Source: a virus
Lineage: Duplodnaviria > Caudoviricetes
Reading direction: 5' to 3' (one strand)
Virus record (IMG/VR): IMGVR_UViG_3300037312_000330
Coordinates: 128,001-192,000 of that record
Length of the DNA stretch: 64,000 nt
Shown here piece after piece: positions 29,641-43,268 of the stretch (positions within the stretch are counted from its first letter, which is position 1; every line of letters begins with the position of its first letter). A program made the position numbers and the translations under genes. Below the pieces are notes generated by a model. It was not told where the DNA came from. It searched no databases and saw nothing but the letters and a program-made list of their open reading frames with translations.

Positions 29641-29680
29641 TAATTTGATGCAGTCGCAGCGTGATCGCTGCATCAAATTA
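29641..29680. repeat. Perfect 13-bp inverted repeat in the divergent intergenic region
   Basis: TAATTTGATGCAG (29641-29653) / CTGCATCAAATTA (29668-29680). Confidence 0.9.
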
Positions 29681-29693
29681 CTCGAGTTCTCAA

Positions 29694-30032
29694 ATGTCTA
29701 TACGCAACAGAATAGTAGCGATGTCACTGTCGTGGGCCGACACACTAAGCATGGTCACCAAGATCATGAAGGCCATCGACGAGACGAACCCACGAATGGT
29801 AAAGCACAATTTACTGGATGGTGCCCATGTGTACATCTTGCAGGCAGATCCGTTCAAGAAGAACTACGTCAGGGACACACTACTCGCTTATGGTATGCAT
29901 AGCGGCAGCAAGGCGGTGCGTGACAGGGAGACGCTCTTTCAGGTGAATCCTGCGGACAAGGAGCAAAGCCTGATCTTGACGTATTACAATCTGACCGGAC
30001 GTATCGAACTCTCTATCGTGACAGGTGCATAA
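29694..30032 (+). CDS. Hypothetical protein with shared N-terminal tag (MSIRNRIVA)
   Basis: RBS GAG; first gene of the probable virion cluster. Confidence 0.7.
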   Translation: MSIRNRIVAMSLSWADTLSMVTKIMKAIDETNPRMVKHNLLDGAHVYILQADPFKKNYVRDTLLAYGMHSGSKAVRDRETLFQVNPADKEQSLILTYYNLTGRIELSIVTGA

Positions 30033-31295
30033 ATGCCATTCAAGCGCAGTTCCAATAACAGAATTCTACCGGCGAACAGTCGCAGTGTTGACGTAGCGAA
30101 GGCGATGTTGGACCGTGTGGTGCCTGTCCAGCAGCGTCGTTATGCGAATGCGTTTGAGGTCAATGGTTACGAAACGCTGCTGTATCAGAAGCTTCGACAT
30201 GGAGTTCCATGCAGTTGTCAGAATCATCGCGGAGCGGCCGCTACGATCCTAGATGAGAGTGGAAAGCTCCGTCCTGGACACATGGATGAACTGTTGACCG
30301 GTGGACTAAGCTTCCGCGTTCAACCATATGGAACTCGCGAGCCGATGCGTGGCGATCTGCGTGCCATCCGTGGTGCAGGACCAGCCGCTCACGAAGAGCA
30401 GATGTTCGACGGCGCCGAAGACGGTGTGCCGTTGGACGACTACGAGATCGAAGACGACTTTGAGAATCCGAACACTACGATCACACATGCTGATGATGGT
30501 GACGTAACAGACAATCAAGACAACGACAATGAGTTGGATGATGAGTCTGAGATCTTCGATGCTGAAGATTATGTCAACGATACCAAGTGCTGCATTTGTT
30601 TCGGGACCGGATGGGTCGGTGGATACAGTCTACTGAACGGTCTTAGAATGGTTCTAAGCACTCAGTGGGGTCCAAACAAACTGAGTATTGATGGAACGAT
30701 AGAAACAAAGCGTTCACCACATGCCTTCATGGCTACTCGCGTCGATTTCACTGCCGTCCTGCCGAAAGGTGTGGTAGGTGTTGATACGTTCCGCATTTGG
30801 AACAACGATCGGCAGACCTTCCCTAGCCAACTGTTGATAGATAACTTGCCATATTCTGTTGGTTTGCTACATGCGTTCTGCGACGGTAGGGAACACACCA
30901 TCAGCGTGCTACATGATCAACTTACATACTGGACGCATGCGGAACTACAGTTCAATCTGAGCACTCAGCGTGCGTTGTTCGAACTGCCGCGGAAAACCGA
31001 CGGGTCGAACATGCAACTTACGGAAGCAGCCGAAGACATGCAGATCAACGTGAGCCCACAAGTGCCGAACATCGAACGCGAGGACATCCTGGTTGAATGC
31101 ACGTTGGGCAAAGGTATGGTTGTTCAATCGGCTACCGACTGGAAGACAGCCAAGCGCGACATCCTAGGATGGGACGTCAACGTGCGTGTCCTGCAACCGA
31201 ACGAGATCGTGAACATGCTGCCTCGGCGCAGGTCCACACATCAGAAGTCCACATATATGGTAAGGGACAACATGGACGGAAGTAGGAGAGTCTGA
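30033..31295 (+). CDS. Hypothetical (probable virion) protein
   Basis: 420 aa; CSC and CCIC motifs; acidic insert. Confidence 0.75.
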   Translation: MPFKRSSNNRILPANSRSVDVAKAMLDRVVPVQQRRYANAFEVNGYETLLYQKLRHGVPCSCQNHRGAAATILDESGKLRPGHMDELLTGGLSFRVQPYGTREPMRGDLRAIRGAGPAAHEEQMFDGAEDGVPLDDYEIEDDFENPNTTITHADDGDVTDNQDNDNELDDESEIFDAEDYVNDTKCCICFGTGWVGGYSLLNGLRMVLSTQWGPNKLSIDGTIETKRSPHAFMATRVDFTAVLPKGVVGVDTFRIWNNDRQTFPSQLLIDNLPYSVGLLHAFCDGREHTISVLHDQLTYWTHAELQFNLSTQRALFELPRKTDGSNMQLTEAAEDMQINVSPQVPNIEREDILVECTLGKGMVVQSATDWKTAKRDILGWDVNVRVLQPNEIVNMLPRRRSTHQKSTYMVRDNMDGSRRV

Positions 31296-31870
31296 TGGTA
31301 GATCCAAAGAAAATCGGCAAATTGATCAGAATCTGGACCACTGATTCAATATATCGTTCTGCTCCAAGAACACGGCTGCTCAAGAAAAAAGTGGCGGTTC
31401 TGTTAAGTAAGGTGCCTGGACAAAAGTTCCCAAATATTGGCTTTCGACTGCTAGAGATAGACGTATCTCGTCTCAAACATTGGACAGATCTTGTCAGAAT
31501 GTTGGATGACAGCTACCCAGAATCTTTCTCGGGGTCGTTGACTGGTCTCAAGAATTACGAGCGGAATGCTAGCGGTGGACACGTGGATATAGGCAAGGCA
31601 GGTTTCCTGGCTTTCCAAATAGAAATGAAATCCAGTGATTGGCTCTTCAGTTTACGTAGTCTCTACGCACAGTTGCCAAGAGAAGAACGTGAGATTGAAG
31701 ACGATGCGGGATTCACGATAAAAGAATATCTGGAGCAAGACGAGGTCGTTGCACGACCAGGAACTCTAAGACGCAGTCTACGAGAGGGTCGCGCTAGTCT
31801 GATAGGGGCAGCCGCCCCACATTCAAAAATGACATGGTACGCAACGCCTAAGAGAATTAGGAAGATGTGA
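31295..31870 (+). CDS. Possible ADP-ribosyltransferase-fold protein
   Basis: GFRLL / ESFSGS / EQDEVVARPG in R-S-E order. Confidence 0.4.
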   Translation: MVDPKKIGKLIRIWTTDSIYRSAPRTRLLKKKVAVLLSKVPGQKFPNIGFRLLEIDVSRLKHWTDLVRMLDDSYPESFSGSLTGLKNYERNASGGHVDIGKAGFLAFQIEMKSSDWLFSLRSLYAQLPREEREIEDDAGFTIKEYLEQDEVVARPGTLRRSLREGRASLIGAAAPHSKMTWYATPKRIRKM

Positions 31871-32595
31871 TGACAATCAACAAGCGAGCACAGACATTCG
31901 ATCTATCGCAGGTGCGGCTTCAGCCGCACGGCAAGACGTCATACGACATCTTTGTAGGTAAGGAGGAAGTTGGCGGTATCGACTTCACTGTCGATTTAAA
32001 GATCACGAAATATGACTTCGTGTCCACGCTCTTCGAGGGCAATCCGTTCATCAAGAAGTTGATGGAACCTGTCCCAGAGAACTACCGCTTCAACTATTAC
32101 TATCTGGATGAGATCATCCTGTGGACACCGTATCGTGGTTCCGGTATTGGCGGAGTCGCACTGCAGAAATGGTTCTCCACGTTGAAGGCGCCTGCAGTCG
32201 TTGCGCTGTCACCAGCCAGAATCGGTAATGTTCCGTATACAGCTTTGCTCCGTTTCTACAAACGGAACGGGATGAGACTGTTCAAATTTCAAGGTGATTA
32301 CATGGCAATCACATTTATCAAACACCCAGACATGGCATCGTTCGTGGGTGACGAAGAAGCGGATACAGCCAACAATGGTGGGACACCGTTCTTCGACGAC
32401 AAATCAGCAGCCGATCGCTACAACCTGAACAAGACCAATGTGACAGCGGATAAAGATTTTCGATCCACAAACCACAGTGTACAGCCGGGATCGGTTCGCT
32501 ATCTGACATTTAAAGATTTGCGTGCCCACGCAGTCTCAGCAAATATCCGACGCATGGGACGCGTTCTTTCCTTCATAAAGGGTCAGAAGGAATGA
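31867..32595 (+). CDS. GNAT-family acetyltransferase with C-terminal extension
   Basis: LDEIILWTPYRGSGIGGVAL (motif A), LLRFYKRNGM (motif B). Confidence 0.7.
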   Translation: MMTINKRAQTFDLSQVRLQPHGKTSYDIFVGKEEVGGIDFTVDLKITKYDFVSTLFEGNPFIKKLMEPVPENYRFNYYYLDEIILWTPYRGSGIGGVALQKWFSTLKAPAVVALSPARIGNVPYTALLRFYKRNGMRLFKFQGDYMAITFIKHPDMASFVGDEEADTANNGGTPFFDDKSAADRYNLNKTNVTADKDFRSTNHSVQPGSVRYLTFKDLRAHAVSANIRRMGRVLSFIKGQKE

Positions 32596-32605
32596 TTAGT
32601 TTGAT
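32596..32605 (+). promoter_or_regulatory. TTAGTTTGAT motif
   Basis: 44 nt before the 32649 gene; same motif as the nrd leaders. Confidence 0.4.
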
Positions 32606-32648
32606 TCCATATATTGGCCCACACAGTTGGGCCTGTTGAGGATAATCT

Positions 32649-33896
32649 ATGGCAATCAAACGATTGTTTGGTGTTACAGAGATCGCGAGCACGCAGTTCC
32701 GGTCTCTTTCTGATGCGGAACGGCACCTGAAGAAAATTCAGGAAGAGATCAAGGATGCCGCCGCGATGTTGCGTAACTATGAAGCTCAATTCGCACGCGT
32801 GGAGCGCCATCCTGTCATGGCAGCCGATCTCACATTCATTATCAATAGCGGTGACGACAACAAAAAGAAGAGTGGAAAGATCGTCAGCGACCGCATCGAC
32901 AAGATTGTAATTCCAAAGCTCGATACTCTTAAGAAGAACTTCGACGTAGTGGATGCCATTTCCGAGAAGATAAAAGAACTCGAGGGAATGGAAGCGAATG
33001 TTGCTGTCAACATGAAGGGAATGCGTGGTCAACCAGAACTGCTGAAAGCCATCAAGAGCACAAAGGCAGCGGCTGACGCGCAAATGAAAGCGGCGCTTGA
33101 ATATCTTGAAACGGTGGGACAGAAGTATGCCCCAACTCCGTTCAAGGAATTCCTTAAGGCCGTAAGCGCCAAACTAAACCAAGATCTCGAGTTCGACAAG
33201 TCGATCATCAGTGTGTACGCGTGGACAGCTCCTACAGAGGAGAACACGTTCACGGTGTATATCCATCTGAAAAACTTCAAAGACGACAACGGCGACATCT
33301 ATCCAGACTTCTACATTGTCTTCACTTGTGTTCTGGCTCCGATCAGCGGAGACAAGCATCAACTGAGCATCGAATACTATGTGACAGTGATGCACGATTT
33401 TGAATCTCCTGGCAAGTTCCACCAAGGACGTCGTGTCTACAACGTCAAAGAGGCGATGGTCGAAATCGGTCACCTGCTGTCCATGGAGAACATCAGTCAC
33501 TCGATCGGTACGCTGCCACACGGTCTGTATCGTCGTGATGAAGAGTTCAAGAACGCGATGAAACAGGGTGCCGGAGCCCGTGTCGACAAGGTGGAGATCG
33601 ATCCATCGTCGTTGACATTCTGGTTCTTCAAGAACGTAAAGCAAGCGGAAGCGCAGAAGCTGATGTCTAGTATGTACGTGGACGTCAAGGCTCTAATGTC
33701 GCATATCCGTGGTGCCAGTCTGAAGATGCGGCAGGTGGAAGAAGACGGCAGACTTGGTGTCAAGTTCAGCCTAATCAATCTGGCTAAGGAAGGTCAGTTG
33801 AATGTCCAAGATCTGGATTGGCTGAAGAGCACATTCAGCCTGCGTGACGATCAAGTACGTGACATCGTTAAGGTCATCAACAAATCGTCGAGGTAA
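32649..33896 (+). CDS. Hypothetical (probable virion) protein
   Basis: 415 aa, coiled-coil N-terminal half. Confidence 0.8.
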   Translation: MAIKRLFGVTEIASTQFRSLSDAERHLKKIQEEIKDAAAMLRNYEAQFARVERHPVMAADLTFIINSGDDNKKKSGKIVSDRIDKIVIPKLDTLKKNFDVVDAISEKIKELEGMEANVAVNMKGMRGQPELLKAIKSTKAAADAQMKAALEYLETVGQKYAPTPFKEFLKAVSAKLNQDLEFDKSIISVYAWTAPTEENTFTVYIHLKNFKDDNGDIYPDFYIVFTCVLAPISGDKHQLSIEYYVTVMHDFESPGKFHQGRRVYNVKEAMVEIGHLLSMENISHSIGTLPHGLYRRDEEFKNAMKQGAGARVDKVEIDPSSLTFWFFKNVKQAEAQKLMSSMYVDVKALMSHIRGASLKMRQVEEDGRLGVKFSLINLAKEGQLNVQDLDWLKSTFSLRDDQVRDIVKVINKSSR

Positions 33897-33899
33897 GAT

Positions 33900-34145
33900 A
33901 TGCCCATCAAACATCGAGTGCAGGCTTTCGCGCCAAGTCCCGGATACGGTGGCGGTGGCGGAGAACCTTTCCACAAAGGACAGAAGGCTCGTGTACCTGA
34001 CATCGGAAAACTGAAGGGCGACACAGTAACAGTGGACTCCGAGTTGCAACCACCGGACAGACAGAACCCAGACGGTTGGTATTGGGTGAAGTTCAAGAAG
34101 GGTGGTCGTGTTAAGATGAAGGCGGGCGATCTGCGTCCGATCTAA
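33900..34145 (+). CDS. Small SH3/KOW-like protein with shared N-terminal tag (MPIKHRVQA)
   Basis: FHKGQKARV...WYWVKF...KMKAGDLRPI. Confidence 0.7.
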   Translation: MPIKHRVQAFAPSPGYGGGGGEPFHKGQKARVPDIGKLKGDTVTVDSELQPPDRQNPDGWYWVKFKKGGRVKMKAGDLRPI

Positions 34146-34146
34146 C

Positions 34147-34920
34147 ATGCCGATCCTACAACGAATACTGGCGGGCAAGTACACTTCAGACCGACTAACT
34201 CGCCAGGAAGCGAAAGACCTGATAGTCTCGCTACGCCCTTTGATACGCAAGCACTGTCAGCAGTTCGAGATCGCTGGCTCCTTCCGTCGTGGAAACACTG
34301 ACATTGGCGATCTTGACTTCGTTGTAGTCAACGCTGATACCGCTGGTCTGCTGCAAGCTCTAGTCCAATACAAGAACGCTGAGAAGGCACCCCGAGCTGG
34401 CAAGGACGTGATGACCGTCATCGTCCCATTTGGCAAGAAGAAGATTCAGGTAGAGTTTGTGAACGTGCTACCACGCGCAGTGGGCAGTGGTCTGTTGCAC
34501 AGTACCGGAAGCGGCGAGTTCAACGTTGGCCTGCGTTCGTTCGCCAAGTCTAAAGGAATGCTGCTCAATCAGCATGGTCTGTTCCGTGCAGACAATGAGC
34601 GCTTCCTTGCTGGTCGTACTGAAGAAGATGTGTTTGACAAACTGGGATTCGCGTTCATCCCGCCGAAGCAACGCAACCTCAGTTTTCTGACTCTCAAGGG
34701 CAAGTACCTTGTCGATCCGTACAAGAACAACTTCTTACTCAAGGAACCGAAAGGCGAAGGTAAGAAGTGGAAGGTCAAGTCGAAGTCTGATCCAACCAAG
34801 TTCTACTTTGTGACCTTGACTCCCAATGGTAAATGGAAGTGCACGTGTCCACAGTTCGTGTACCGCAAGCAAGAGTGTAAGCACATCCAATTCATTAAGG
34901 ACAAGAAGGGGTTGTCATGA
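34147..34920 (+). CDS. polX: Minimal family X DNA polymerase fused to a SWIM zinc finger; N-terminal tag MPILQRILA
   Basis: IAGSFRRG...GDLDFVV, HSTGSGEFNVGLR, LNQHGLF, EEDVFDKLG; C-terminal CTCPQF...CKHI. Confidence 0.85.
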   Translation: MPILQRILAGKYTSDRLTRQEAKDLIVSLRPLIRKHCQQFEIAGSFRRGNTDIGDLDFVVVNADTAGLLQALVQYKNAEKAPRAGKDVMTVIVPFGKKKIQVEFVNVLPRAVGSGLLHSTGSGEFNVGLRSFAKSKGMLLNQHGLFRADNERFLAGRTEEDVFDKLGFAFIPPKQRNLSFLTLKGKYLVDPYKNNFLLKEPKGEGKKWKVKSKSDPTKFYFVTLTPNGKWKCTCPQFVYRKQECKHIQFIKDKKGLS

Positions 34921-35123
34921 CCATCAGAGCAATAGCCCGACTGAAAGAGCTGGCTGCCGAGATTAAGCCCGAGAACAGAGGCAAATTGCACCGCCGGTTG
35001 GGGATCCCGGAAGATCAAGAGATACCAATGTCTCGCTTGCGTTCGGAACTCAAGAAGGCTAAGGACAGCGGTGACACAGAACTCGAGAAGATGGTGAACT
35101 TCGCTATCAATTTCAAGCACTAA
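34917..35123 (+). CDS. Small hypothetical protein
   Basis: GKLHRRLGIPEDQEIP; N-terminal ARLKELAA. Confidence 0.7.
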   Translation: MTIRAIARLKELAAEIKPENRGKLHRRLGIPEDQEIPMSRLRSELKKAKDSGDTELEKMVNFAINFKH

Positions 35124-35125
35124 AC

Positions 35126-35710
35126 ATGCCGCATCCATATCTATACAAGCTGGCCCACAAGCATGGCATCTCAGTGGATGAAGCTGAGAAGCGGTGGAAT
35201 AAGGCGAAGTCCAGAGCCAAAGACGAAGGTAAGGACAAGGACTGGGTTTACATTACTGGAATCTTCAAGCGCAGTATGGGCGAGGGTGCCTCGTTCGTTG
35301 GTGATGAAGAGGCCGACACATACGATCCAGTGCTTCCTCCTGGAATGCAGCCTAACGCTTCCGTAGCCAGATTGCGTGAAGTCGCCGCGATGGCCAATCA
35401 GGCGCAGGCTAAACGATTCCTGCAGGGGATTGGGCTCCAACCTACTTCTGTAGGAATGGTTGAAGAGAACTACATCAGCTACAAGATCAAGGATCCTGGT
35501 GAGAGCAAGACGGTCAACATCATCACGCAGGCGCTCGGCGTGGCGGGTGTAAAGCAAGCGAAAGATTACGGTCCTGTAGTCAATCGCGTTACCAAGACGA
35601 TCCAATGGATCTGGCGTGTGCCGAGCCGTGGGGTCATCAAGTACTTCCCTTCTACACACAAAGTCGCGTTCATGAATCAGGAACTTGACGACAAAGGAGA
35701 GACCGTATGA
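35126..35710 (+). CDS. Hypothetical (probable virion) multi-module protein
   Basis: KHGISVDEAEKRWNKAK module; ASFVGDEEADT; ARLREVAA. Confidence 0.75.
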   Translation: MPHPYLYKLAHKHGISVDEAEKRWNKAKSRAKDEGKDKDWVYITGIFKRSMGEGASFVGDEEADTYDPVLPPGMQPNASVARLREVAAMANQAQAKRFLQGIGLQPTSVGMVEENYISYKIKDPGESKTVNIITQALGVAGVKQAKDYGPVVNRVTKTIQWIWRVPSRGVIKYFPSTHKVAFMNQELDDKGETV

Positions 35711-36669
35711 AGACGAAAGCTGCGAAGCGTCTGCTGACAGCCGGTCGCTACGTTGGCACCCAGGAGTGGTTCCTTGGTATGCCAGAAGAGAAACAACGCG
35801 ATTATCTAGCGAAGAAACCTTGCTCCACGTTCAAGCCTGTCCACAAGGAAGTCCGTGAAACGAATGCGGACAGCAGCAAGAAGCAACAGACCAAGCTCCG
35901 CAAGCGTGCCGAGAAGCACCTGGACAACAAGACCGGACTGAGCACAGCAGCCGCGCCTAAGCTGGCCAAACCAGTGAAACTTGGCAAGACTGTAGACGGC
36001 AAGAACTACGTCTGGCGCGAAGAATGCATAATCAACCGACAAAAGGCAGAAGTCTACGTAGTCCGGAATAAGGCGGGTAAGGAGTTAGTTGCACTCAAGA
36101 ACTCTCGCGCAGCCTTCGAGTATCGACCTCTGGAGTCCAGCACCAGCACAGCGACAGCCCGTCTGCGTGAGATCGCCACGGGTCGTGGACCGGCGATTGG
36201 TGATCTCTGCAAGTTGAAGAAGCCGATTGGCGGATATTCGTACTTCCATTGCACTGGATTCGCCATCAATAAGAACAAGCAAGGTCTTGGTCCCATGGGT
36301 CTTGGAGACGGTCGCTTTCCGTTTGCTGGTGCCCAGATAGATGGGATCATTGGTAATCTGAAACCAACCCCATTGGCGACCAACGACTATGGACCCAAGA
36401 AGACTATCAAGCTAGAAGACATCGATACAGTGTTGGACGCACGCTCACGGCAACTCGAGATACAAGAATACCGTGACAAGCAACCGCTCGCCGTTGGATC
36501 AGTAGTCCGATTCAACGGACAGCTCTATACAGTGAAGAGCGGACCGCATTACGACACACCGAGACAGCGCAAGACAGACACGGCGTCCTGGTATGTGTGC
36601 GTAGACAAGAGTGGTGTCGAACACCAGATCAGCCGTGCTGCACTCGAATTCATGTACGGACCACGCTAA
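35707..36669 (+). CDS. Hypothetical multi-module protein
   Basis: 320 aa; internal ARLREIAT; C-terminal SH3-like segment. Confidence 0.75.
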   Translation: MKTKAAKRLLTAGRYVGTQEWFLGMPEEKQRDYLAKKPCSTFKPVHKEVRETNADSSKKQQTKLRKRAEKHLDNKTGLSTAAAPKLAKPVKLGKTVDGKNYVWREECIINRQKAEVYVVRNKAGKELVALKNSRAAFEYRPLESSTSTATARLREIATGRGPAIGDLCKLKKPIGGYSYFHCTGFAINKNKQGLGPMGLGDGRFPFAGAQIDGIIGNLKPTPLATNDYGPKKTIKLEDIDTVLDARSRQLEIQEYRDKQPLAVGSVVRFNGQLYTVKSGPHYDTPRQRKTDTASWYVCVDKSGVEHQISRAALEFMYGPR

Positions 36670-36672
36670 GAT

Positions 36673-38157
36673 ATGGACAACTCCACAACTTTGTGCGTAA
36701 AGTTCCCCGCTGACAGTAGCAACGTCACAGTCAGCTTTGCCGACGTACTTGTGGGTGGGGAGCAGATCGTAAGCGGAGTGCTTGGCACCAGCACTCCAAC
36801 CGGGTTGACAGTCAGCAGTCTGAGTTTCACGGGCACGACCATCAGCCTGAATGTCGCTGCTGGAACAGACAAGCAAAGTTACGGGGTCCAAGTCACTGCG
36901 AATACGGACGCCGGTCACGTCTACACGAAGGTGCTTGCAGTCGTGATCAACAGTGATCTGGCTGCCGACTATCAGAACACGAACGTAGACGCGTTCCAAG
37001 CTCTGGTCGGAAAACTGGAAGCCGGAACTGCTGCCCTAGGTAAAGCCGCGTTCATGTTCCCTGGAACAGTGGATACCACATCCGGTATCGTAACGTGGGA
37101 TCTGCTGGATCAGAATGGAGTAGTGCTTGCCAACGGACAGGCGTTCGACTATCAGACGATCGCAGTAGCAAGTGGCAAGCGTGCCGAGGCACAAGCTGTT
37201 ATCACGGCTCCGTCGAACACAACGCCTACACTGGACGGACAGTCGTATCAGCTCCGTTGGACACTGACTCTCAACGGACAGCAATACTTCTCGTTCGAGA
37301 GTCTGCAAATCACCGGTCCGGCCACTGTGCCGGAAGGTGTCGAAGATGTCATCGAGATGGATGACGTTACGGCGTTCACCATCTACATGGTATCTGATCA
37401 GCCGTGGGACACCGTGACCGTCGATGTTTACGATGAGAACACCAAGATCGTTGTGGATGCACCGACTGCAGCTCCAACACAAACTGCTGACGGATGGCAG
37501 TATATGTGTCAGTTCCAGCCGGATCCAAACAACCTTATGCTGGCGCGTTTGGAAAGCTACACTGTCGTTTGGAAGACTAGCAATGTCGCGCGTCCTGGCT
37601 ATGTGGAACGACAGACAGGACGTTTGTTTGTAGTCAATGCTTCTATCATGGCTGCTGTCACAGACATGCGGACCGTGATCGCCAAGGCAGAGACAACGAT
37701 TCTGGGCACCAAAGACATCCTGTTCACGGATACGCTGCTACTTGCGTATCTGCGTCGTGGTAAAGACGCCTTCAACATCGCTTACGGTATGTTCACGGCG
37801 TTCGACATGACTAACGCACAAGGGCCGGTACGCGAATACTGGATGCGCTATTCTGAGATAACTGCACTCCGGGCTCAATTCTTGGCCGAAGGCGAGAAAG
37901 TGTTCAACTTCTCAGGACAGGCTATCCAGTTGGATTCGGATCGCACCACCTACTATCAGCAGCTCGCTGACAACATCGAGCAGCGGATCTCAGAGGAATG
38001 CAAGATGATCAAGCAAAACCTGATCAAGAAGGGTATCCTGGGTGGTGACGGAAACCTGAAGGATCTGACGGCGATGCGACATGGTTCCAACGGTGCTGTT
38101 GCCATCACGATCACGCCGGCGTCTACTCTGGGATATCGCTTTGCGCGGAGATTCTAA
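36673..38157 (+). CDS. Probable virion structural protein
   Basis: 494 aa, Thr/Val-rich beta-type N-terminal domains, helical C-terminus. Confidence 0.65.
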   Translation: MDNSTTLCVKFPADSSNVTVSFADVLVGGEQIVSGVLGTSTPTGLTVSSLSFTGTTISLNVAAGTDKQSYGVQVTANTDAGHVYTKVLAVVINSDLAADYQNTNVDAFQALVGKLEAGTAALGKAAFMFPGTVDTTSGIVTWDLLDQNGVVLANGQAFDYQTIAVASGKRAEAQAVITAPSNTTPTLDGQSYQLRWTLTLNGQQYFSFESLQITGPATVPEGVEDVIEMDDVTAFTIYMVSDQPWDTVTVDVYDENTKIVVDAPTAAPTQTADGWQYMCQFQPDPNNLMLARLESYTVVWKTSNVARPGYVERQTGRLFVVNASIMAAVTDMRTVIAKAETTILGTKDILFTDTLLLAYLRRGKDAFNIAYGMFTAFDMTNAQGPVREYWMRYSEITALRAQFLAEGEKVFNFSGQAIQLDSDRTTYYQQLADNIEQRISEECKMIKQNLIKKGILGGDGNLKDLTAMRHGSNGAVAITITPASTLGYRFARRF

Positions 38158-38462
38158 TGCCAATCACACATCGCATTCAAGCTGCTGCCAAGGGTGACTT
38201 CGAGAAGAAGATCCTGGAATTTCTAGAGAACAACTTCGAAGCAATGGCTGATTCTACAGGAAAACGTGGCTTCGGCAAGTACAATAAGCGAACTCAGTTG
38301 GACTACTTGATGTCGTACGTCCAGAACGACCGCGAGTACTGGAAAGAGTTCAGTGACGAAGACCCTGAGTTTGACGCTAAGCTCACGAAATGGCTCAAGC
38401 TGGCCCCACACGCGCAGTTGGAACAGCTTCTGCCGTTCTTCAACAAACTCGACTACGATTGA
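38157..38462 (+). CDS. Hypothetical protein with shared N-terminal tag (MPITHRIQA)
   Basis: TAATG coupling. Confidence 0.75.
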   Translation: MPITHRIQAAAKGDFEKKILEFLENNFEAMADSTGKRGFGKYNKRTQLDYLMSYVQNDREYWKEFSDEDPEFDAKLTKWLKLAPHAQLEQLLPFFNKLDYD

Positions 38463-38791
38463 TGTTCTTCAAACGTAACAAGTCTGGAGTCACGAAGATC
38501 GTCCGTGATAACTATCACAAAGATAAGACACGTGTTGATCTGAAGAAAGTTGGTCTGACTATCAAGGACGATTGGTACACGCTGAAGGCCCGTGTCCTAA
38601 AACGTGATAACTACCGATGTAAACAGTGCGGAACAAAACACGGTTCTGACGATCCGAAACGTCTAGGCAAGAAGATCTGGCTAGACGCACACCACATACG
38701 AGAGTTGAGTAAGGGTGGCACGACAACTATGGCAAACCTCATCAGCCTATGTCGCTATTGTCATCTAACTCGACATTCACATCATTTCTAA
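38462..38791 (+). CDS. HNH endonuclease
   Basis: VLKRDNYRCKQCG...LDAHHI..LSKGG...NLISLCRYCHLTRH. Confidence 0.85.
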   Translation: MFFKRNKSGVTKIVRDNYHKDKTRVDLKKVGLTIKDDWYTLKARVLKRDNYRCKQCGTKHGSDDPKRLGKKIWLDAHHIRELSKGGTTTMANLISLCRYCHLTRHSHHF

Positions 38792-38806
38792 GGATAAACA
38801 CACATC

Positions 38807-39253
38807 ATGGGTGCTCGTTATTTTACCAACGCGTCTCGTCCACATATGGACAGCCACAATGGTATTCGCCTGTTCACTAATGAACCACGCATCCATGTGC
38901 TGTGGGACGGCAAAGACACCAATCGCCAGAATTCCACAATGGCGGCTGGAGTTATTTGGGTGCCGCTCATGTCGCTGATGCGTCAAGGAAATAGTCTCGG
39001 ATATGGATTCCAAGTGCAGGGTTCTGGTGTCACCAAGATTGAGGGATCGATGAGTCCTGCTCGTCAGGCTCTGTACATGAAGGACAACGATACGTATTGG
39101 AACGCCATCGTCACAGCAGAGAACGCCAATTTCCAGACGATTTCTACTGCTCCAACGGCAGGCACTGTGGTTCAAAGTCTGAATTTCTACACGCTCGCCC
39201 GAATCACGTTTAGCGTGGGTACTCCATCGTCTGTCGTAATCACCACCATCTAA
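38807..39253 (+). CDS. Probable virion protein
   Basis: 148 aa, beta-rich composition. Confidence 0.65.
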   Translation: MGARYFTNASRPHMDSHNGIRLFTNEPRIHVLWDGKDTNRQNSTMAAGVIWVPLMSLMRQGNSLGYGFQVQGSGVTKIEGSMSPARQALYMKDNDTYWNAIVTAENANFQTISTAPTAGTVVQSLNFYTLARITFSVGTPSSVVITTI

Positions 39254-39332
39254 TATCTGAGATCGTTGCTCAGTATTTTTATGTGTAACCCGTTGAGGTC
39301 GCTTATCAAACACAATCCCATGGAGATCGCAT

Positions 39333-39788
39333 ATGTCCGACCCCACGGGGATTCTCAGCGTTTCCGTTGAGGGATCCCCGTCCAATGAGGACCCTGCTGA
39401 TGATGGTGCTTCACTAGAGGCAATTATCCAGGCGTACCTCGACGTAAATCCCACCCCAAGTGACGAACAGATTCACCATCTCGCAGCAATGCTCGGAATG
39501 ACACCCGAGTCGTTCGAGGAGGTAATCTACAAGATGTTCGGTCAATACGTGTCTGACGACATGCCAGCTATCAATGATGCGCTGACAGGTCTGAGTATGC
39601 GTGACGCACCGGAGGATCCGATTGAGGAACTGCTAGTCAAGTTCTTCGTCGCGCATCCGGAACCGTCTGACGAACAGATCCACCACCTAGCTGCGCTTAT
39701 CGGGTTTACGCCCGAGACGCTTGAGGAGCGTTTGTATTCCATGCTGTCTGATCTGGAATCAATCGATCCTACCAACCCATCCATCTGA
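39333..39788 (+). CDS. Acidic protein with two internal homeodomain-like repeats
   Basis: NPTPSDEQIHHLAAMLGMTPE / HPEPSDEQIHHLAALIGFTPE. Confidence 0.75.
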   Translation: MSDPTGILSVSVEGSPSNEDPADDGASLEAIIQAYLDVNPTPSDEQIHHLAAMLGMTPESFEEVIYKMFGQYVSDDMPAINDALTGLSMRDAPEDPIEELLVKFFVAHPEPSDEQIHHLAALIGFTPETLEERLYSMLSDLESIDPTNPSI

Positions 39789-39796
39789 GGCCCATC

Positions 39797-40603
39797 ATGC
39801 AAGAATTCCGTTATTTCGATCTCGACAAAGTTGCTTCCCAGCTCAGCCGCTACACGGTCAGCGTTCACGACTACAAGATGATCAGCCCCACGGTAGCGCG
39901 CGTCATCCTGTCGTACACAGGCAGTGCTCCGACACAAGACGAAGTGCGCCAGCAAATCGCTTCTATCTTCCAGGGTAGTGCTGCTCCGATTGCCGGTTCG
40001 TTCCGCGAACTGACCCGTGCTGGCGACGTGAAGTCTGTCATCGGTTTCGTGAAGGCCAGTCGCGAAGTCAAGCCTTTCGAAGAAGCTGCCGCCAACGGTA
40101 AGGACTACAAGGTTATGGCTTCCAATCTGCTGATGCAGACAGCAGACGGCTCTATGTGGGAGATCAAGTCGGGTGCGATGGGCAAGTATCTGGCGAAGCA
40201 AAGCAACGACGATCTGCGTCAGCTCATCCATCTGGCGCAGAATACCTGCGCCGGCATTCCAAAGTTCAATCAGATCGCCTCGCTGGCGTCTGTGGCTGAA
40301 CCCAAGGAGTTTGCCGCGTTTGTCGACCTGAACGCTGAAGAAGTGCTGCATGGTTTCGTGGTGGCCTCCACCGAAGACAAGGTGACCGTCATTGCCAAGG
40401 AAACTGGCGAAGCTGTCGAAGTGGCTGCTGATCAGCTCGTTCACATCCAGGAAGTGAGCGCCAACGAGCTTGGTGACAAACAGATGGCTGCGGACATGAG
40501 CGATCCCAATGCGGTGATCGAATACTGGCGCTCCGTCTACCGCTACAGCCCGGAGTACATCCAGAAGATCATCGACATGGTTGGAATGCACTCGTACGCC
40601 TAA
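39797..40603 (+). CDS. Probable abundant virion protein
   Basis: 268 aa, strongly biased codons, followed by a strong terminator. Confidence 0.65.
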   Translation: MQEFRYFDLDKVASQLSRYTVSVHDYKMISPTVARVILSYTGSAPTQDEVRQQIASIFQGSAAPIAGSFRELTRAGDVKSVIGFVKASREVKPFEEAAANGKDYKVMASNLLMQTADGSMWEIKSGAMGKYLAKQSNDDLRQLIHLAQNTCAGIPKFNQIASLASVAEPKEFAAFVDLNAEEVLHGFVVASTEDKVTVIAKETGEAVEVAADQLVHIQEVSANELGDKQMAADMSDPNAVIEYWRSVYRYSPEYIQKIIDMVGMHSYA

Positions 40604-40612
40604 GAGCGCCCT

Positions 40613-40652
40613 AGGGAGCCCTGTCCGTGTGTACGGATACGGCTCCCTTTTT
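40613..40652 (+). terminator. Rho-independent terminator
   Basis: AGGGAGCC..TGTCCGT-GTGT-ACGGATA..GGCTCCCT-TTTT. Confidence 0.85.
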
Positions 40653-40668
40653 CGTTTAAGGAACACAT

Positions 40669-41064
40669 ATGGCAATTACTCATCGCATCGTGGCGGCACC
40701 TTCCAAGAAGGCGTACATGTCTTGGGCAGAAATGCAGAAGACCATGTCTAACGTGATGATGGAGCTGAGGGCAAACGGATTGAAGTTTGCTCCTGAGTAT
40801 GATTTCCTCAAAGCTCCTTCGTACGTTAGAAGAGGCTACTACAGCACAAAAGTCACTGCAAAGGAAGTCCAAGAAGTGTTGCGCAGGCGTGGCTTTCGGA
40901 TGGACAATCGCTTCGCTGTTCTCTACAAAAAGATTGGCTCCAAGTCTGTCGAGATCTCATTTGAAGAACGTGGACCAACTCTTCACATGGAACTCACCGT
41001 TTCTGACAACAATGGTCCTGAAGATCAAGATGTAGTAGGTCCAGGTCACAGCCACTATGACTAA
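40669..41064 (+). CDS. Hypothetical protein with shared N-terminal tag (MAITHRIVA)
   Basis: RBS AAGGA. Confidence 0.75.
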   Translation: MAITHRIVAAPSKKAYMSWAEMQKTMSNVMMELRANGLKFAPEYDFLKAPSYVRRGYYSTKVTAKEVQEVLRRRGFRMDNRFAVLYKKIGSKSVEISFEERGPTLHMELTVSDNNGPEDQDVVGPGHSHYD

Positions 41065-41066
41065 GA

Positions 41067-41228
41067 ATGATCGCCAATCGCATCACGGCTGCACGAGGCA
41101 ATTGGAATCCAGACGTCATCAAGCCGGTGAAAAGACTCCAGATAACGATACCCACGCCGGGCAAATCGATTTTGATGCTGCGTGGAAGATGCAAATGTGA
41201 GGACGTATGTCGATCAACAAGAAAGTAG
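41067..41228 (+). CDS. Small protein with tag-like N-terminus (MIANRITA); possible frameshift
   Basis: 53 aa, not in ORF track. Confidence 0.5.
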   Translation: MIANRITAARGNWNPDVIKPVKRLQITIPTPGKSILMLRGRCKCEDVCRSTRK

Positions 41229-41647
41229 AAGCAGCGGCGATAAGCGGAGCAGGAATTCTGTTCGTCCACGACGGGAAGATACTCCTGATCTACCGTAGTG
41301 CCGATGTAGTCGACCCCAATCTGTGGTGTGGTGCGGGTGGCAAGATCGAGCCCGGTGAAACACCGGAAGAGGCGGCGGTACGTGAAGCCAGCGAAGAGAT
41401 TGGCTATACAGAAGACGACACGCTGGAACTGATCCCGCTGTACGTCTACAACAGTGACAAGCTGGTGTTCCACAACTTTGTGGGTCTGTTGCCTCGCGAA
41501 CGCTTTCGCCCGACACTAAATTGGGAATCGGAGGGTTACGGCTGGTTCACTCTGGACAAGCTGCCGAACAACCTCCACTATGGATTCCAGGAGATCCTGG
41601 ACGATAAGGAAGCAAGCACCGTCCTCAAGGACGCGATGGAGAAGTAG
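41207..41647 (+). CDS. Nudix hydrolase with tag-like N-terminus (MSINKKVEA)
   Basis: Nudix box GGKIEPGETPEEAAVREASEEIG. Confidence 0.9.
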   Translation: MSINKKVEAAAISGAGILFVHDGKILLIYRSADVVDPNLWCGAGGKIEPGETPEEAAVREASEEIGYTEDDTLELIPLYVYNSDKLVFHNFVGLLPRERFRPTLNWESEGYGWFTLDKLPNNLHYGFQEILDDKEASTVLKDAMEK

Positions 41648-41875
41648 ATGCCGGTCAAAAATCGCGTAGAAGCGGTGGGCGAGTCTGACGACGAATTGAA
41701 GGAATGGGAAGCAATCGCCAAGTTCGTGAAACGGGGCAAAGGCTCGGCCGTCAAGGACAAGGGTAAGAAGGTGCTTTCTACATACGATAAGCTTCCCAAG
41801 AGCAATCCAACAGTTCATGAGATAGAAGTAAACGGGACACGTTATGCGATCGTAAGGATCGTGAGTCTGCGATAA
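41648..41875 (+). CDS. Small protein with shared N-terminal tag (MPVKNRVEA)
   Basis: Starts directly after the Nudix stop. Confidence 0.7.
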   Translation: MPVKNRVEAVGESDDELKEWEAIAKFVKRGKGSAVKDKGKKVLSTYDKLPKSNPTVHEIEVNGTRYAIVRIVSLR

Positions 41876-41899
41876 ACACTAACAACGAAGGCAACTGCA

Positions 41900-42739
41900 A
41901 TGAGAATGCGCAACGTAGGACCAAAGAACATCACGCGCTCTCTGTTGGAAGACAAGCCGCGTAAGCGCAAGAAGAAGTTGGAAGGCGACGATCTGACATT
42001 CAGGGTCCTGGCACGCAAGGACCCAGAAGACCTATCAGACGATGAACGCCGCGAGCTCAAAGATTTGCGCAAGAAGCGTAAGGAACGCAAGAAGAAGCGT
42101 GAGCTCGAAACCATGGAACAGGCTGAGCGTAACGACAGAGACTACGAAGCAGAAAAGAAAGGTCTCAAGCGCAAGGAAACAAAACTGAGCAAGAGCCGCG
42201 ATCTAGTTGTATCGGTTGGTGCAGGCAACCTGAGCACAAAGGAGCGCAAGGCACTCGAACGTCAAGCCGAGTCTTACTTCGGTGCCAACAGCGTCAAGAT
42301 CATGGACATGCTGGAGAACGGCGATGCCGACTCTGGCATCACTGTTCTCAAGAAGACACTGCTGATGACGATCATCCGCGTATTGCCGATGGCCGAAGAC
42401 ATCCTAACCAACAGCGGGACGGCAAAGGGCACCTATCAGTTCGTGACGTTGATCAGCCAGATGCGTGAACTCATGGCTGACATCCAGGCCGACAAGGACA
42501 AGCAATTCCTTGCACAGTCGATTGCTGAACAGATTATCAGACCTGCGTTCATGAACATGGCGCAAGAGATGATGATGCAACACCACACCTTCCGCAAGAA
42601 GGGTGACCTGTTCGTAGTTCCATCCAAGAATAGCTACTTCTCGGAACAACTACTGGAGTTGGGGAAGAATCTGGCTGCAATGATGCAGACAGAGTACAAG
42701 GAAGTGAGCACCAAGATCCAAGAGGCGCTCAAAAACTGA
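41900..42739 (+). CDS. Hypothetical protein, basic N-terminus and helical C-terminus
   Basis: 279-aa ORF. Confidence 0.8.
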   Translation: MRMRNVGPKNITRSLLEDKPRKRKKKLEGDDLTFRVLARKDPEDLSDDERRELKDLRKKRKERKKKRELETMEQAERNDRDYEAEKKGLKRKETKLSKSRDLVVSVGAGNLSTKERKALERQAESYFGANSVKIMDMLENGDADSGITVLKKTLLMTIIRVLPMAEDILTNSGTAKGTYQFVTLISQMRELMADIQADKDKQFLAQSIAEQIIRPAFMNMAQEMMMQHHTFRKKGDLFVVPSKNSYFSEQLLELGKNLAAMMQTEYKEVSTKIQEALKN

Positions 42740-42748
42740 GGACACATC

Positions 42749-42979
42749 ATGGAATTCATCCGTTCGTTCTACTCTGGGGTTGGCGACTTCCTAGCAGTTG
42801 GTCGCATGGCGTGGAAGCGTCTACTCCTGGTGTACGTTGTGGCAACCGTGCTTGCCTGTATCATCGGTTTCTTTATTCCGTTCGTGAACGCGCGCAACTT
42901 CGGGATTGGAACCGGTCTTGTGATCACATTCCTCCTGTGGATCCTTGGATATCTCGGGATGCGCAACAGCAACATGTAA
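42749..42979 (+). CDS. Small 2-TM membrane protein (holin-like topology)
   Basis: Two hydrophobic helices; RBS GAGGA. Confidence 0.6.
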   Translation: MEFIRSFYSGVGDFLAVGRMAWKRLLLVYVVATVLACIIGFFIPFVNARNFGIGTGLVITFLLWILGYLGMRNSNM

Positions 42980-43085
42980 CGACTGTTACTCTGTGTTACA
43001 CAATAGGCCACTCACCTGTGTTAAGCTAGGGTAGGCGCCCACACTCTCGCACCAATTCACCATATCCTCCTATCAGGAACCACGT

Positions 43086-43268
43086 ATGGCTATTAGAAAC
43101 AGGATAACTGCTAGTGCGAAGACTTTCTATCAGGCCAACTACTCTCCGGAATGTGTACTCTTAAGCAGATCCAGGATTTCGCCACAGCTTGGAACAAATG
43201 GCGTGATGACTTCCGTAATGGAAAGAATCCGCCAGCCTTTAAATATCCATAATAGAAAACGACAATGA
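43086..43268 (+). CDS. Small protein with shared N-terminal tag (MAIRNRITA); possible frameshift
   Basis: RBS AGGA. Confidence 0.55.
   Translation: MAIRNRITASAKTFYQANYSPECVLLSRSRISPQLGTNGVMTSVMERIRQPLNIHNRKRQ

What the first reader, a model, noticed from the sequence alone, without database searches (positions are those of the whole stretch)
29694..43268. Shared N-terminal peptide tag on about 9 unrelated proteins: candidate capsid-cargo addressing system
N-termini: MSIRNRIVA (29694), MPIKHRVQA (33900), MPILQRILA (34147, PolX-SWIM), MPITHRIQA (38157), MAITHRIVA (40669), MIANRITA (41067), MSINKKVEA (41207, Nudix), MPVKNRVEA (41648), MAIRNRITA (43086); weaker MTINKRAQ (31870, GNAT). Consensus M-[APST]-[IV]-x-[HNQK]-[RK]-[IV]-x-A, after which the sequences are unrelated. 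I saw none outside this cluster. By analogy with the T4 internal-protein capsid-targeting sequence that the prohead protease removes, this may be a modular tag that loads enzymes (DNA repair polymerase, nucleotide hydrolase, acetyltransferase) into the head for injection.
Basis: partly seen in the sequence, partly recalled or inferred. Interest (0 to 1): 0.85.

Follow-up and report, generated by a model that had tools for sequence, protein, structure and literature searches.

The report
Shared N-terminal tag on jumbo-phage proteins
About a dozen unrelated proteins of this 249-kb phage start with the same nine amino acids, and related giant phages use versions of this tag on at least 84 different protein families encoded among their virion genes, so it is most likely an address label that loads accessory enzymes into the virus particle, though packaging has not been shown.

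Summary
Eight of these directly follow the start Met of + strand ORFs at 29694-43268. Codons at the conserved residues differ, so selection acts on the peptide.

The phage is a distant relative of Ralstonia phage phiRSL1, BcepSauron and Motura. Those phages and about 25 uncultivated relatives carry the same kind of tag (consensus MK[IL][EQN]AAxRLxA) in genome-specific dialects. I found 147 tagged proteins in 84 unrelated body families, including GNAT, Nudix, PolX, SprT-like and lethal-factor-like peptidases, Zeta toxin, ribosome modulation factor and a globin. Orthologous cargo carries the dialect of its own genome.

In Motura and a 172-kb relative every tag lies inside the virion operon. In four lineages a different tagged gene follows the head protease. 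The neighbouring giant SNF2 helicase is a virion protein in phage PaBG. An AlphaFold model shows the tag as a free, disordered extension.

Best reading (about 50%): a capsid- or virion-loading tag, like the T4 capsid-targeting sequence or the P1 DarB signal. Packaging, cleavage and the receptor are unproven, and the tag lacks the T4 cleavage motif. A first-stage note (e1-5363918) saw the same tag type in another genome.

The parts
29694..30032 (+). Tagged ORF, 112 aa, MSIRNRIVA; no known family
30033..31295 (+). Untagged conserved core gene (phiRSL1 ORF115-like, 420 aa). Its conserved N-terminus MP.K...NNRILPAN loosely resembles the tag.
31870..32595 (+). Weakly tagged ORF, 241 aa, MTINKRAQT; GNAT-like only by eye, no Pfam hit
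32649..33896 (+). 415-aa conserved protein with a degenerate tag, MAIKRLFG. Its relatives in other genomes carry full tags (MVTKLKAAARLTAY, MEAAKRLAAS).
33900..34145 (+). Tagged ORF, 81 aa, MPIKHRVQA
34147..34920 (+). Tagged PolX-type polymerase (palm and thumb) with a C-terminal SWIM zinc finger, MPILQRILAG. The ortholog in L003 starts MKLQALARLLSLAG.
34917..35123 (+). 68-aa ORF with the clade-type dialect, MTIRAIARLKELA
35707..36669 (+). 320-aa ORF with the clade-type dialect, MKTKAAKRLLTAG. The ortholog in L003 starts MKAESRLKVLAT.
36673..38157 (+). Head-tail connector / fibre-adaptor-like virion protein (untagged). It is the syntenic anchor of the tag cluster in all relatives.
38157..38462 (+). 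Tagged ORF, 101 aa, MPITHRIQA
40669..41064 (+). Tagged ORF, 131 aa, MAITHRIVA. The ortholog in L003 starts MAITNKVTA.
41067..41228 (+). Short tagged ORF, 53 aa, MIANRITAA. It overlaps the next gene and may be a decayed copy of the 73-74-aa MAIKNRIQA genes of L003.
41207..41647 (+). Tagged Nudix hydrolase, 146 aa, MSINKKVEA. The tag is disordered in the model and the Nudix fold starts at about residue 10-14.
41648..41875 (+). Tagged ORF, 75 aa, MPVKNRVEA. The ortholog in L003 starts MMPISNRVEA.
43086..43268 (+). Tagged ORF, 60 aa, MAIRNRITA
44991..49715 (+). 1574-aa SNF2-type helicase (untagged) that closes the cluster. Its PaBG homolog gp202 is a virion protein. It has a weak DarB-like PHROG hit.
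   Evidence: PMC7412058 Table 1

Best explanation
The 9-12 N-terminal residues are an address tag. In this phage it reads M-[PAST]-I-x-[NH]-R-[IV]-x-A, and across the clade M-K-[IL]-[EQN]-A-A-x-R-L-x-A. One phage-encoded partner reads it during particle assembly. Small accessory enzymes that carry it are co-assembled into the prohead or virion, probably together with the giant DarB-like helicase, and reach the next host cell with the DNA. Examples here are a PolX polymerase, a Nudix hydrolase and a globin. In relatives they include GNAT and Zeta toxins, metallopeptidases and ribosome modulation factor. Shown: the tag exists, is selected as a peptide, lies outside the folded domain, is modular across at least 84 body families, evolves in concert within each genome, and is encoded within virion operons. 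Inferred: packaging, delivery, the identity of the receptor, and whether the head protease removes the tag.
For: (1) Eight exact and several looser tags sit only at ORF starts, with varying codons. (2) The same kind of tag occurs in phiRSL1, BcepSauron, Motura and about 25 uncultivated relatives. There are 147 tagged proteins in 84 body clusters, 58 of them singletons. (3) Tag identity is 0.48 for unrelated proteins of one genome, 0.39 for orthologous proteins of different genomes and 0.29 for background. This points to one receptor per phage that co-evolves with its tags. (4) In Motura, 13 of 13 profile hits in 221 kb are at annotated N-termini. Twelve lie around the connector and one lies after the tail tube, all inside one co-directional block of tail fibres, connector, helicase, protease, scaffold, capsid, sheath and tube. 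In a 172-kb relative, 17 of 17 hits lie within 7.5-43 kb on one strand, including directly after the protease, after the sheath and after the tube. In phiRSL1, L052, L058 and that relative, non-homologous tagged genes fill the slot after the protease. (5) The PaBG virion proteome contains the homologous 221-kDa helicase gp202 (PMC7412058 Table 1). P1 packages the helicase-containing DarB through an N-terminal signal, and darB lies beside the portal and protease genes (PMC9024508). (6) The cargo is effector-like: GNAT 7, DUF3175 5, Nudix 3, SprT 2, lethal-factor-like peptidase 2, RMF 2, Zeta toxin 1, PolX 1. Host-directed enzymes encoded in late operons make most sense if they are packaged for the next infection. 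(7) The tag is a free extension. In the Nudix model residues 1-9 have pLDDT <50 and the body about 90. Orthologs have a linker of 0-30 residues after the tag.
Against: No proteomic or structural data place any tagged protein in a particle. The phiRSL1 virion protein list (Yamada 2010) could not be read. The tag has no Glu-terminated T4 or phiKZ-type cleavage motif, and this clade's protease specificity is unknown. In this genome the cluster lies next to DNA polymerase, SSB and UvsX genes, about 100 kb from the capsid and protease genes. Its candidate promoter motif is shared with ribonucleotide reductase genes as well as the tail sheath gene, so late timing is not established here. Scaffold N-termini do not carry the lineage tag. 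PaBG packages the helicase without having tags. A heme globin is an odd cargo for ejection. The complex prediction gave no verdict.
Confidence: 0.5

Rival explanations
1. The tag docks client enzymes onto a phage-encoded hub that acts in the infected cell and not in the particle. Candidates are the giant SNF2 helicase or a replication or anti-defence complex. The tagged proteins would then work as one cytoplasmic assembly.
For: Concerted evolution of tags within a genome implies a phage-encoded reader but does not say where it acts. In this genome the cluster adjoins the helicase and the replication genes. PolX and Nudix fit DNA and nucleotide transactions.
Against: In Motura, phiRSL1 and the 172-kb relative the tagged genes are scattered between head and tail genes, including after the sheath and tube. 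That is hard to explain for a replication hub. The helicase homolog is itself in virions in PaBG.
Confidence: 0.2
2. The tag is a degradation or chaperone signal read by a host machine, such as an N-terminal ClpXP-type degron or an Hsp70 site. It would limit the lifetime or aid the folding of potentially toxic accessory proteins.
For: It is a short N-terminal peptide with one basic residue followed by a hydrophobic one. From my own knowledge this is loosely like the ClpX N-motif 1 (polar-T/hydrophobic-hydrophobic-basic-hydrophobic, as in lambda O and Dps). Several cargo proteins are toxin-like.
Against: Host proteases are highly conserved, yet the tags form genome-specific dialects, and orthologs switch dialect between phages. 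The tag does not fit the ClpX motif in register. The virion-operon location is not explained.
Confidence: 0.12
3. The tag is mainly the recognition and cleavage site of the head maturation protease (hydrophobic-x-Ala, cut before a small residue, as in herpesvirus assemblin sites). It would mark proteins that are activated or inactivated by cleavage, and targeting would be provided elsewhere.
For: R-[LIV]-x-A followed mostly by A, S, T or G is the invariant core. Scaffold homologs keep an internal G-N-R-I-V-A motif. The capsid protein has a conserved [KR]-E-L-[VLM]-x-A site at residue 72-83, whose use would remove 20-23% of the mass. PaBG capsid protein loses about 20% on maturation.
Against: These are all short-motif resemblances. 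No N-terminal sequence data exist. PaBG has E, not A, at the aligned capsid position. This idea is compatible with the main explanation and is not exclusive of it.
Confidence: 0.1
4. There is no addressing function. The shared start would reflect a translation-initiation or N-terminal codon optimum, or a recombination scar that lets new genes be slotted in behind an existing start.
For: Lys, Ile and Ala codons after ATG are common in well-expressed genes. Different genes occupy the same slots in different phages.
Against: Codons at the invariant R, L/I and A positions vary freely in every lineage, and upstream DNA is not conserved. The invariant Arg-Leu/Ile-x-Ala has no known role in initiation. 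The tag has been retained over divergence down to 35% identity of core proteins.
Confidence: 0.05

Closest known systems
T4 capsid targeting sequence (CTS) of internal proteins IPI/IPII/IPIII and Alt (Mullaney and Black, as cited in PMC9024508)
   Same: It is an N-terminal peptide of about 10 residues shared by otherwise unrelated proteins. It is modular, and the cargo includes host-directed enzymes.
   Different: There is no L/I-x-E cleavage motif. The core is invariant Arg-Leu/Ile-x-Ala. It marks dozens of cargo families per clade, not a handful. Packaging and cleavage are not demonstrated. The phage family is unrelated to T4.
P1 Dar system: DarB N-terminal capsid-targeting signal (PMC9024508)
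   Same: A giant helicase-containing protein sits beside head genes and is found in virions (PaBG gp202 here, DarB in P1). Small accessory proteins are encoded nearby. An N-terminal signal of under 30 residues is sufficient in P1.
   Different: According to that paper the P1 Dar proteins share no consensus N-terminus. Here the small proteins share a clear consensus while the helicase itself lacks it.
Polyvalent proteins of phages and conjugative elements (Iyer et al. 2017; recalled from my own knowledge and named in scan note e1-800510)
   Same: The repertoire is the same: metallopeptidases, Zeta toxin, Nudix, SNF2 helicase and acetyltransferases, proposed to travel with the DNA.
   Different: There the domains are fused into one giant polypeptide. 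Here each domain is a separate small protein with its own tag.
Cargo-loading peptides of encapsulins and N-terminal encapsulation peptides of bacterial microcompartments (my own knowledge)
   Same: A short, often helical peptide, joined by a flexible linker, recruits unrelated enzymes into a protein shell. In encapsulins that shell has the HK97 fold.
   Different: The consensus sequences differ. Encapsulin peptides are mostly C-terminal. No shell-binding site has been identified here.

Membership tests
T4-type capsid targeting sequence | A short N-terminal peptide shared by unrelated proteins of one phage | tested here: met
   8 exact and 4-5 looser tags in this genome; 147 tagged proteins in relatives
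T4-type capsid targeting sequence | The tag ends in the prohead protease cleavage motif (L/I-x-E in T4; S/A/G-x-E in phiKZ-like phages) | tested here: not met
   The tags end in R-[LIV]-x-A with no conserved Glu. The specificity of this clade's own protease is unknown.
T4-type capsid targeting sequence | Tagged proteins are present inside the capsid and are injected | not testable with these tools
   No virion proteome of a tag-bearing phage could be read. Only the untagged helicase homolog is documented in PaBG virions.
T4-type capsid targeting sequence | The tag is sufficient to package a foreign protein | not testable with these tools
   This needs a tag-reporter fusion experiment.
T4-type capsid targeting sequence | The phage encodes a prohead protease and a scaffold core | tested here: met
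   Head maturation protease (phrog_18299), a scaffold-like acidic 525-aa protein and the major head protein were found at genome 12.6 kb and 61.9-65.2 kb.
P1 Dar-like internal antirestriction module | A giant helicase-containing protein is packaged in the head | tested here: inconclusive
   The 1574-aa protein has SNF2-related domain and Helicase_C hits (DEAD below Pfam cutoff) and a weak DarB-like PHROG hit (E 1.8e-7). Its PaBG homolog (30% identity) is a virion protein, but location in the head and an antirestriction role are unknown.
P1 Dar-like internal antirestriction module | A methyltransferase domain as in DarB | tested here: not met
   Pfam finds only the SNF2/helicase domains (SNF2-related, Helicase_C, sub-cutoff DEAD).
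ClpX N-terminal degron (N-motif 1) | polar-T/hydrophobic-hydrophobic-basic-hydrophobic within the first residues (recalled from Flynn et al. 2003) | tested here: inconclusive
   The tag has basic-hydrophobic (R-L/I), but the preceding residues (A-A-x or I-x-N/H) do not fit in register. No degradation data exist.

The most novel reading that the evidence does not exclude
The phiRSL1-like jumbo phages have a general effector-delivery system. A single phage-encoded receptor in the prohead reads a 9-12-residue N-terminal tag that co-evolves with it. Any gene that acquires the tag, including toxins, ribosome hibernation factor, repair enzymes and a globin, becomes cargo injected with the DNA. The tag would then be a sequence signature that lists the injected proteome of a whole phage clade, and a ready-made handle for packaging foreign proteins.
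Probability: 0.4. Interest if true: 0.85.

Novelty: new variant of a known kind. Interest (0 to 1): 0.7.

Why it matters
If the tag is a loading signal, it gives a simple sequence rule for predicting which proteins a whole clade of giant phages carries into the cell ahead of gene expression. This question is otherwise accessible only through virion proteomics. The predicted cargo list includes toxins, peptidases, ribosome modulation factor, a repair polymerase and Nudix enzymes. It would show how these phages take over or protect themselves in the first seconds of infection. The genome-specific dialects offer a natural experiment on tag-receptor co-evolution. A 9-12-residue tag would also be a practical tool for packaging foreign proteins in jumbo-phage heads, as the T4 and P1 signals already are. 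If it proves to be something else, such as a degron or a hub-docking peptide, it would still be an undescribed, clade-wide sorting signal on more than 80 protein families.

Tried and rejected
1. DNA-level explanations (conserved promoter, RBS, translational operator or recent duplication) are rejected. Upstream DNA is not conserved and synonymous codons vary at every conserved residue in six genomes.

2. Paralogy is rejected. Bodies fall into 84 clusters with Pfam families of unrelated folds.

3. I tested whether scaffold N-termini carry the lineage's tag. They do not (L052, L057 and L058 scaffolds start MPIAKAK, MPIKEQL and MKLKKTQ). The internal G-N-R-I-V-A of the scaffold is conserved in all lineages whatever their tag dialect, so it does not co-vary. 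The match to this phage's dialect may be chance (about 0.5 regex hits are expected in the proteome).

4. I asked whether the ORF115-like protein occurs only with tags. It does not. It is also present in the tag-poor record of L024, in L025's record (which carries only a few tags in the stretch examined), and weakly in PaBG.

5. Complex prediction with capsid protein, scaffold C-terminal half and the tagged 101-aa protein scored 0.00 with all chains poorly folded. This gives no verdict and is not evidence either way.

6. Timing from promoter motifs is inconclusive. TARTTTGAT precedes 29694 and 32649, but also ribonucleotide reductase genes and the tail sheath gene.

7. Literature: the phiRSL1 genome/proteome paper and the cryo-EM paper are not held. 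The jumbo-phage comparative review and the Matilda preprint do not mention such a tag.

8. The protein atlas gave nothing for the ORF115-like protein.

9. PaBG gp191, a processed virion protein next to the connector, has no detectable homolog in this cluster.

Full report
**What the window is.** The window is bases 128001-192000 of a single 248,884-bp phage contig. The 494-aa protein at 36673-38157 is 37-39% identical to the 'head-tail connector' proteins of Ralstonia phage phiRSL1, Burkholderia phages BcepSauron and BcepSaruman, and Achromobacter phage Motura. Its N-terminal domain matches a phage fibre-tail adaptor family (PF23148). The phage is therefore a distant member of the phiRSL1-like jumbo myoviruses. 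Its head protease lies at about genome 12.6-13.4 kb. Its scaffold-like protein, a 222-aa virion protein and the major capsid protein lie at 61.9-65.2 kb. All of these are far from the cluster. Downstream of the cluster come a 1574-aa SNF2 helicase, then DNA polymerase, SSB, UvsX-like and SbcD-like genes.

**The observation.**
- The strict pattern [APST][IV]x[HNQK][RK][IV]xA occurs 8 times in the six-frame translation of the window. Each hit immediately follows an ATG at an ORF start on the + strand.
- In the whole genome there are 12 hits. Only these 8 are N-terminal, and the other 4 are about the number chance predicts.
- Codons at the conserved positions differ from gene to gene and the upstream DNA is unrelated. 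The constraint is therefore on the peptide, not on a DNA or RNA signal.
- Looser scans add MIANRITAA (41067) and two tagged genes outside the cluster. One is a truncated globin, MAIRRILAG, beside the tRNA genes (PF01152). The other is a 267-aa orphan, MSIENRVTSA.
- The bodies are unrelated. PolX palm/thumb plus SWIM and Nudix are confirmed by Pfam, and the rest are orphans.
- Domain hits start at residues 14-18. An AlphaFold model of the Nudix protein is confident everywhere (pLDDT about 90) except residues 1-9, which are exactly the tag.
- Nudix orthologs have a linker of 0-30 residues between tag and domain.

**The tag is a property of a whole phage clade.** I fetched 35 loci centred on connector homologs from viral metagenome contigs, and also read the annotated phiRSL1, BcepSauron and Motura records.
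- Most of them show the same thing in their own dialect:
  - MKIEAAxRLxA (L012, L009, L014)
  - xFKIEAxxRIQA (L016)
  - M[EQ]IQAAxRLxA (Motura)
  - MKVKLNAAxRLAA (L035)
  - MKLNAAxRLxA (L017-L019)
  - MNFAxR[ILV]LA (L022, L038)
  - more degenerate AAxxRLxA forms in phiRSL1 and BcepSauron
- The nearest relative, L003 (connector 68% identical), uses this phage's short form MAITNRIxA on at least 9 genes, and also the long form.
- Anchored on the invariant Arg, the consensus is M-K-[IL]-[EQN]-A-A-x-R-L-x-A-[AST]. The median cargo length is 122 aa.
- In total, 147 tagged proteins fall into 84 clusters by body similarity, 58 of them singletons.
- Pfam on 115 of them finds GNAT (7), DUF3175 (5), Nudix (3), SprT-like (2), lethal-factor-like peptidase domain (2), ribosome modulation factor (2), Zeta toxin, PolX and saccharopine dehydrogenase-like enzymes.
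- Codons vary at the conserved residues in all lineages checked.
- PaBG has a connector homolog but no tags in that region.

**Concerted evolution.** Orthologous cargo wears the dialect of its genome.
- The Nudix protein starts MSINKKVEA here, MSLKKVEA in L003, MKLLALTRLLL in L010, MGLRIQAVARLRA in L019, MKINSAFRLLV in phiRSL1 and MEAAYRLL in BcepSauron.
- The PolX protein starts MPILQRILAG here and MKLQALARLLSLAG in L003.
- Over ten tag positions, identity is 0.48 between unrelated proteins of the same genome. It is 0.39 between related proteins of different genomes and 0.29 for unrelated proteins of different genomes. The Mann-Whitney p value is 4e-4, but the pairs are not independent.
- This is what one expects if all tags of a phage are read by one partner that drifts with the phage. 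It is not what one expects for a conserved host machine.

**Where the tagged genes lie.**
- In the complete Motura genome, a profile of its tag finds 13 sites in 221 kb. All 13 are at or within 7 residues of annotated gene starts. Twelve lie at 134.6-145.2 kb around the connector gene gp166. The thirteenth is gp197, immediately after the tail tube gene.
- That whole stretch is one co-directional block: tail fibres, ORF115-like, tagged genes, connector, tagged genes, SprT, HNH, helicase, head protease, scaffold, virion protein, capsid, sheath, tube, tagged gene.
- phiRSL1 has the same order.
- In a 172-kb uncultivated relative, 17 of 17 profile hits lie within 7.5-43 kb on one strand. They include genes directly after the protease, two after the sheath and one after the tube.
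- The slot just after the head protease holds a tagged gene in phiRSL1 (ORF133), L052 (two genes), L058 and that relative. Their bodies are not homologous to one another.
- The tag therefore marks a changing set of accessory genes embedded in the virion-assembly operons.
- In the present phage the block has been moved next to the replication genes, so its timing cannot be read from context. A candidate promoter motif, TARTTTGAT, precedes 29694 and 32649. It has 6 sites in the window against 0.6 expected. It also precedes ribonucleotide reductase genes and the tail sheath gene, so it does not settle the question.

**Link to virions.** The only experimental anchor I could find is the PaBG structural proteome. 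Band 1 is the 221-kDa gp202 'helicase' (PMC7412058, Table 1). It is the homolog (30% identity) of the 1574-aa protein that closes this cluster. That protein also gives a weak hit to a DarB-like PHROG. In P1, the helicase-containing DarB is packaged through an N-terminal signal of under 30 residues, and its gene lies beside the portal and protease genes. The same paper summarises the T4 capsid targeting sequence (PMC9024508). PaBG's capsid protein loses about 20% of its mass on maturation, so the clade's protease is active. A conserved [KR]-E-L-[VLM]-x-A site at residue 72-83 of the capsid proteins would fit that loss. That is an inference only.

**Most likely mechanism.** I think the tag is a virion-loading signal (about 50%). 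The tag is made as a free N-terminal peptide on small proteins that are, in the ancestral gene order, co-expressed with head and tail genes. A phage-encoded partner in the assembling particle would bind it, and the proteins would be enclosed and delivered with the DNA. This explains why host-directed enzymes (toxins, ribosome modulation factor, peptidases) are encoded in late structural operons. It also explains why the tag is modular and why it co-evolves within each genome.

The following steps are not shown:
- packaging itself
- the receptor
- whether the tag is removed

The invariant R-[LIV]-x-A followed by a small residue resembles assemblin-type sites (hydrophobic-x-Ala, cut before Ser; my own knowledge). 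It could be the cut site, but it clearly is not the T4 or phiKZ Glu-type motif. Membership of the T4 CTS family in the strict sense is therefore not met, although the logic is the same.

**Rivals.**
- A docking peptide for a cytoplasmic hub such as the helicase (about 20%).
- A host-read degron or chaperone signal (about 12%). The genome-specific dialects argue against it.
- A protease recognition site without targeting function (about 10%). This is compatible with the main idea.
- A non-functional or translational feature (about 5%). Codon variation contradicts it.

**Negative and inconclusive results.**
- The complex prediction of capsid protein, scaffold C-terminal half and a tagged protein gave no verdict.
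- Scaffold N-termini do not carry the lineage's tag.
- The conserved internal GNRIVA of the scaffold does not co-vary with dialect.
- The ORF115-like protein is not restricted to tag-bearing phages.

**Prior knowledge.** I found no description of this tag in the papers searched, including a comparative review of 224 jumbo phages and a 2026 preprint on a BcepSauron relative. Within this scan, another first-stage note (e1-5363918) reports LxA(K/A)xRL starts on unrelated proteins, including a Nudix, in another genome whose connector resembles that of L012. Follow-ups on other phage groups have described analogous but different tags.

**Verdict.** I rate this a new variant of a known kind (capsid-targeting or cargo-loading peptides). 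The function is plausible but unproven.

Noticed in passing
window 44991-49715 (+): This is a 1574-aa SNF2-type helicase, conserved and syntenic in all relatives. Its PaBG homolog gp202 is an abundant virion protein, and it gives a weak DarB-like PHROG hit. It may be a packaged, injected helicase.
   Followed up: partly
window 10280, 12717, 15107, 29641, 29672(-), 32597; 17 sites genome-wide: The motif TARTTTGAT has 6 sites in the window against 0.63 expected. It lies 30-100 nt upstream of start codons of ribonucleotide reductase genes, the tail sheath gene and two operon starts of the tag cluster. It is a candidate phage promoter or operator. At 29641-29680 two copies form a perfect palindrome between divergent genes.
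   Followed up: partly
window 4704, 44712, 50594, 50916, 56507, 57806, 60301 and others (33 genome-wide): A second recurrent motif, TGTAAAT[AG], is mostly intergenic and lies upstream of replication-type genes. It resembles the T4 late promoter TATAAATA.
   Followed up: no
genome 87162-87611 (+) = L005:663-1112: A phage-encoded truncated (bacterial-like) globin carries the tag MAIRRILAG. It lies directly after a tRNA gene, outside the cluster.
   Followed up: partly
window 38459-38791 (+): An HNH endonuclease gene is conserved at this position (phiRSL1 ORF122-like) within the cluster in nearly all relatives.
   Followed up: no
window 39333-39788 (+): A 151-aa protein has two copies of a NP.PSD.QIHHLA repeat, shared with phiRSL1 ORF125 and BcepSauron gp090. 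It is a conserved untagged core gene of the block with no known function.
   Followed up: no
genome 63649-65226 (-) = L007:3150-4727: The scaffold-like acidic 525-aa protein (mislabelled 'ATPase' in relatives) has two zinc-ribbon-like CxxC pairs at its N-terminus in this phage only. It also has an internal GNRIVA motif that is invariant across phiRSL1, BcepSauron, Motura and others.
   Followed up: partly
window 30033-31295 (+): The ORF115-like 420-aa core protein has a strongly conserved N-terminus (MP.K...NNRILPAN.R..DVA) and a CxxC motif. Its function is unknown. It is present in almost all tag-bearing relatives, but also in some without tags.
   Followed up: partly
L052:4847-6199: In the relative that also holds L012, the scaffold gene appears split into two frames. 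This is either a frameshift or a sequencing error.
   Followed up: no
genome 213415 (-), 119 aa: A zinc-ribbon protein starts MMPVQRIIPD just downstream of a TAATTTGAT motif. It may be a further degenerate tag.
   Followed up: no
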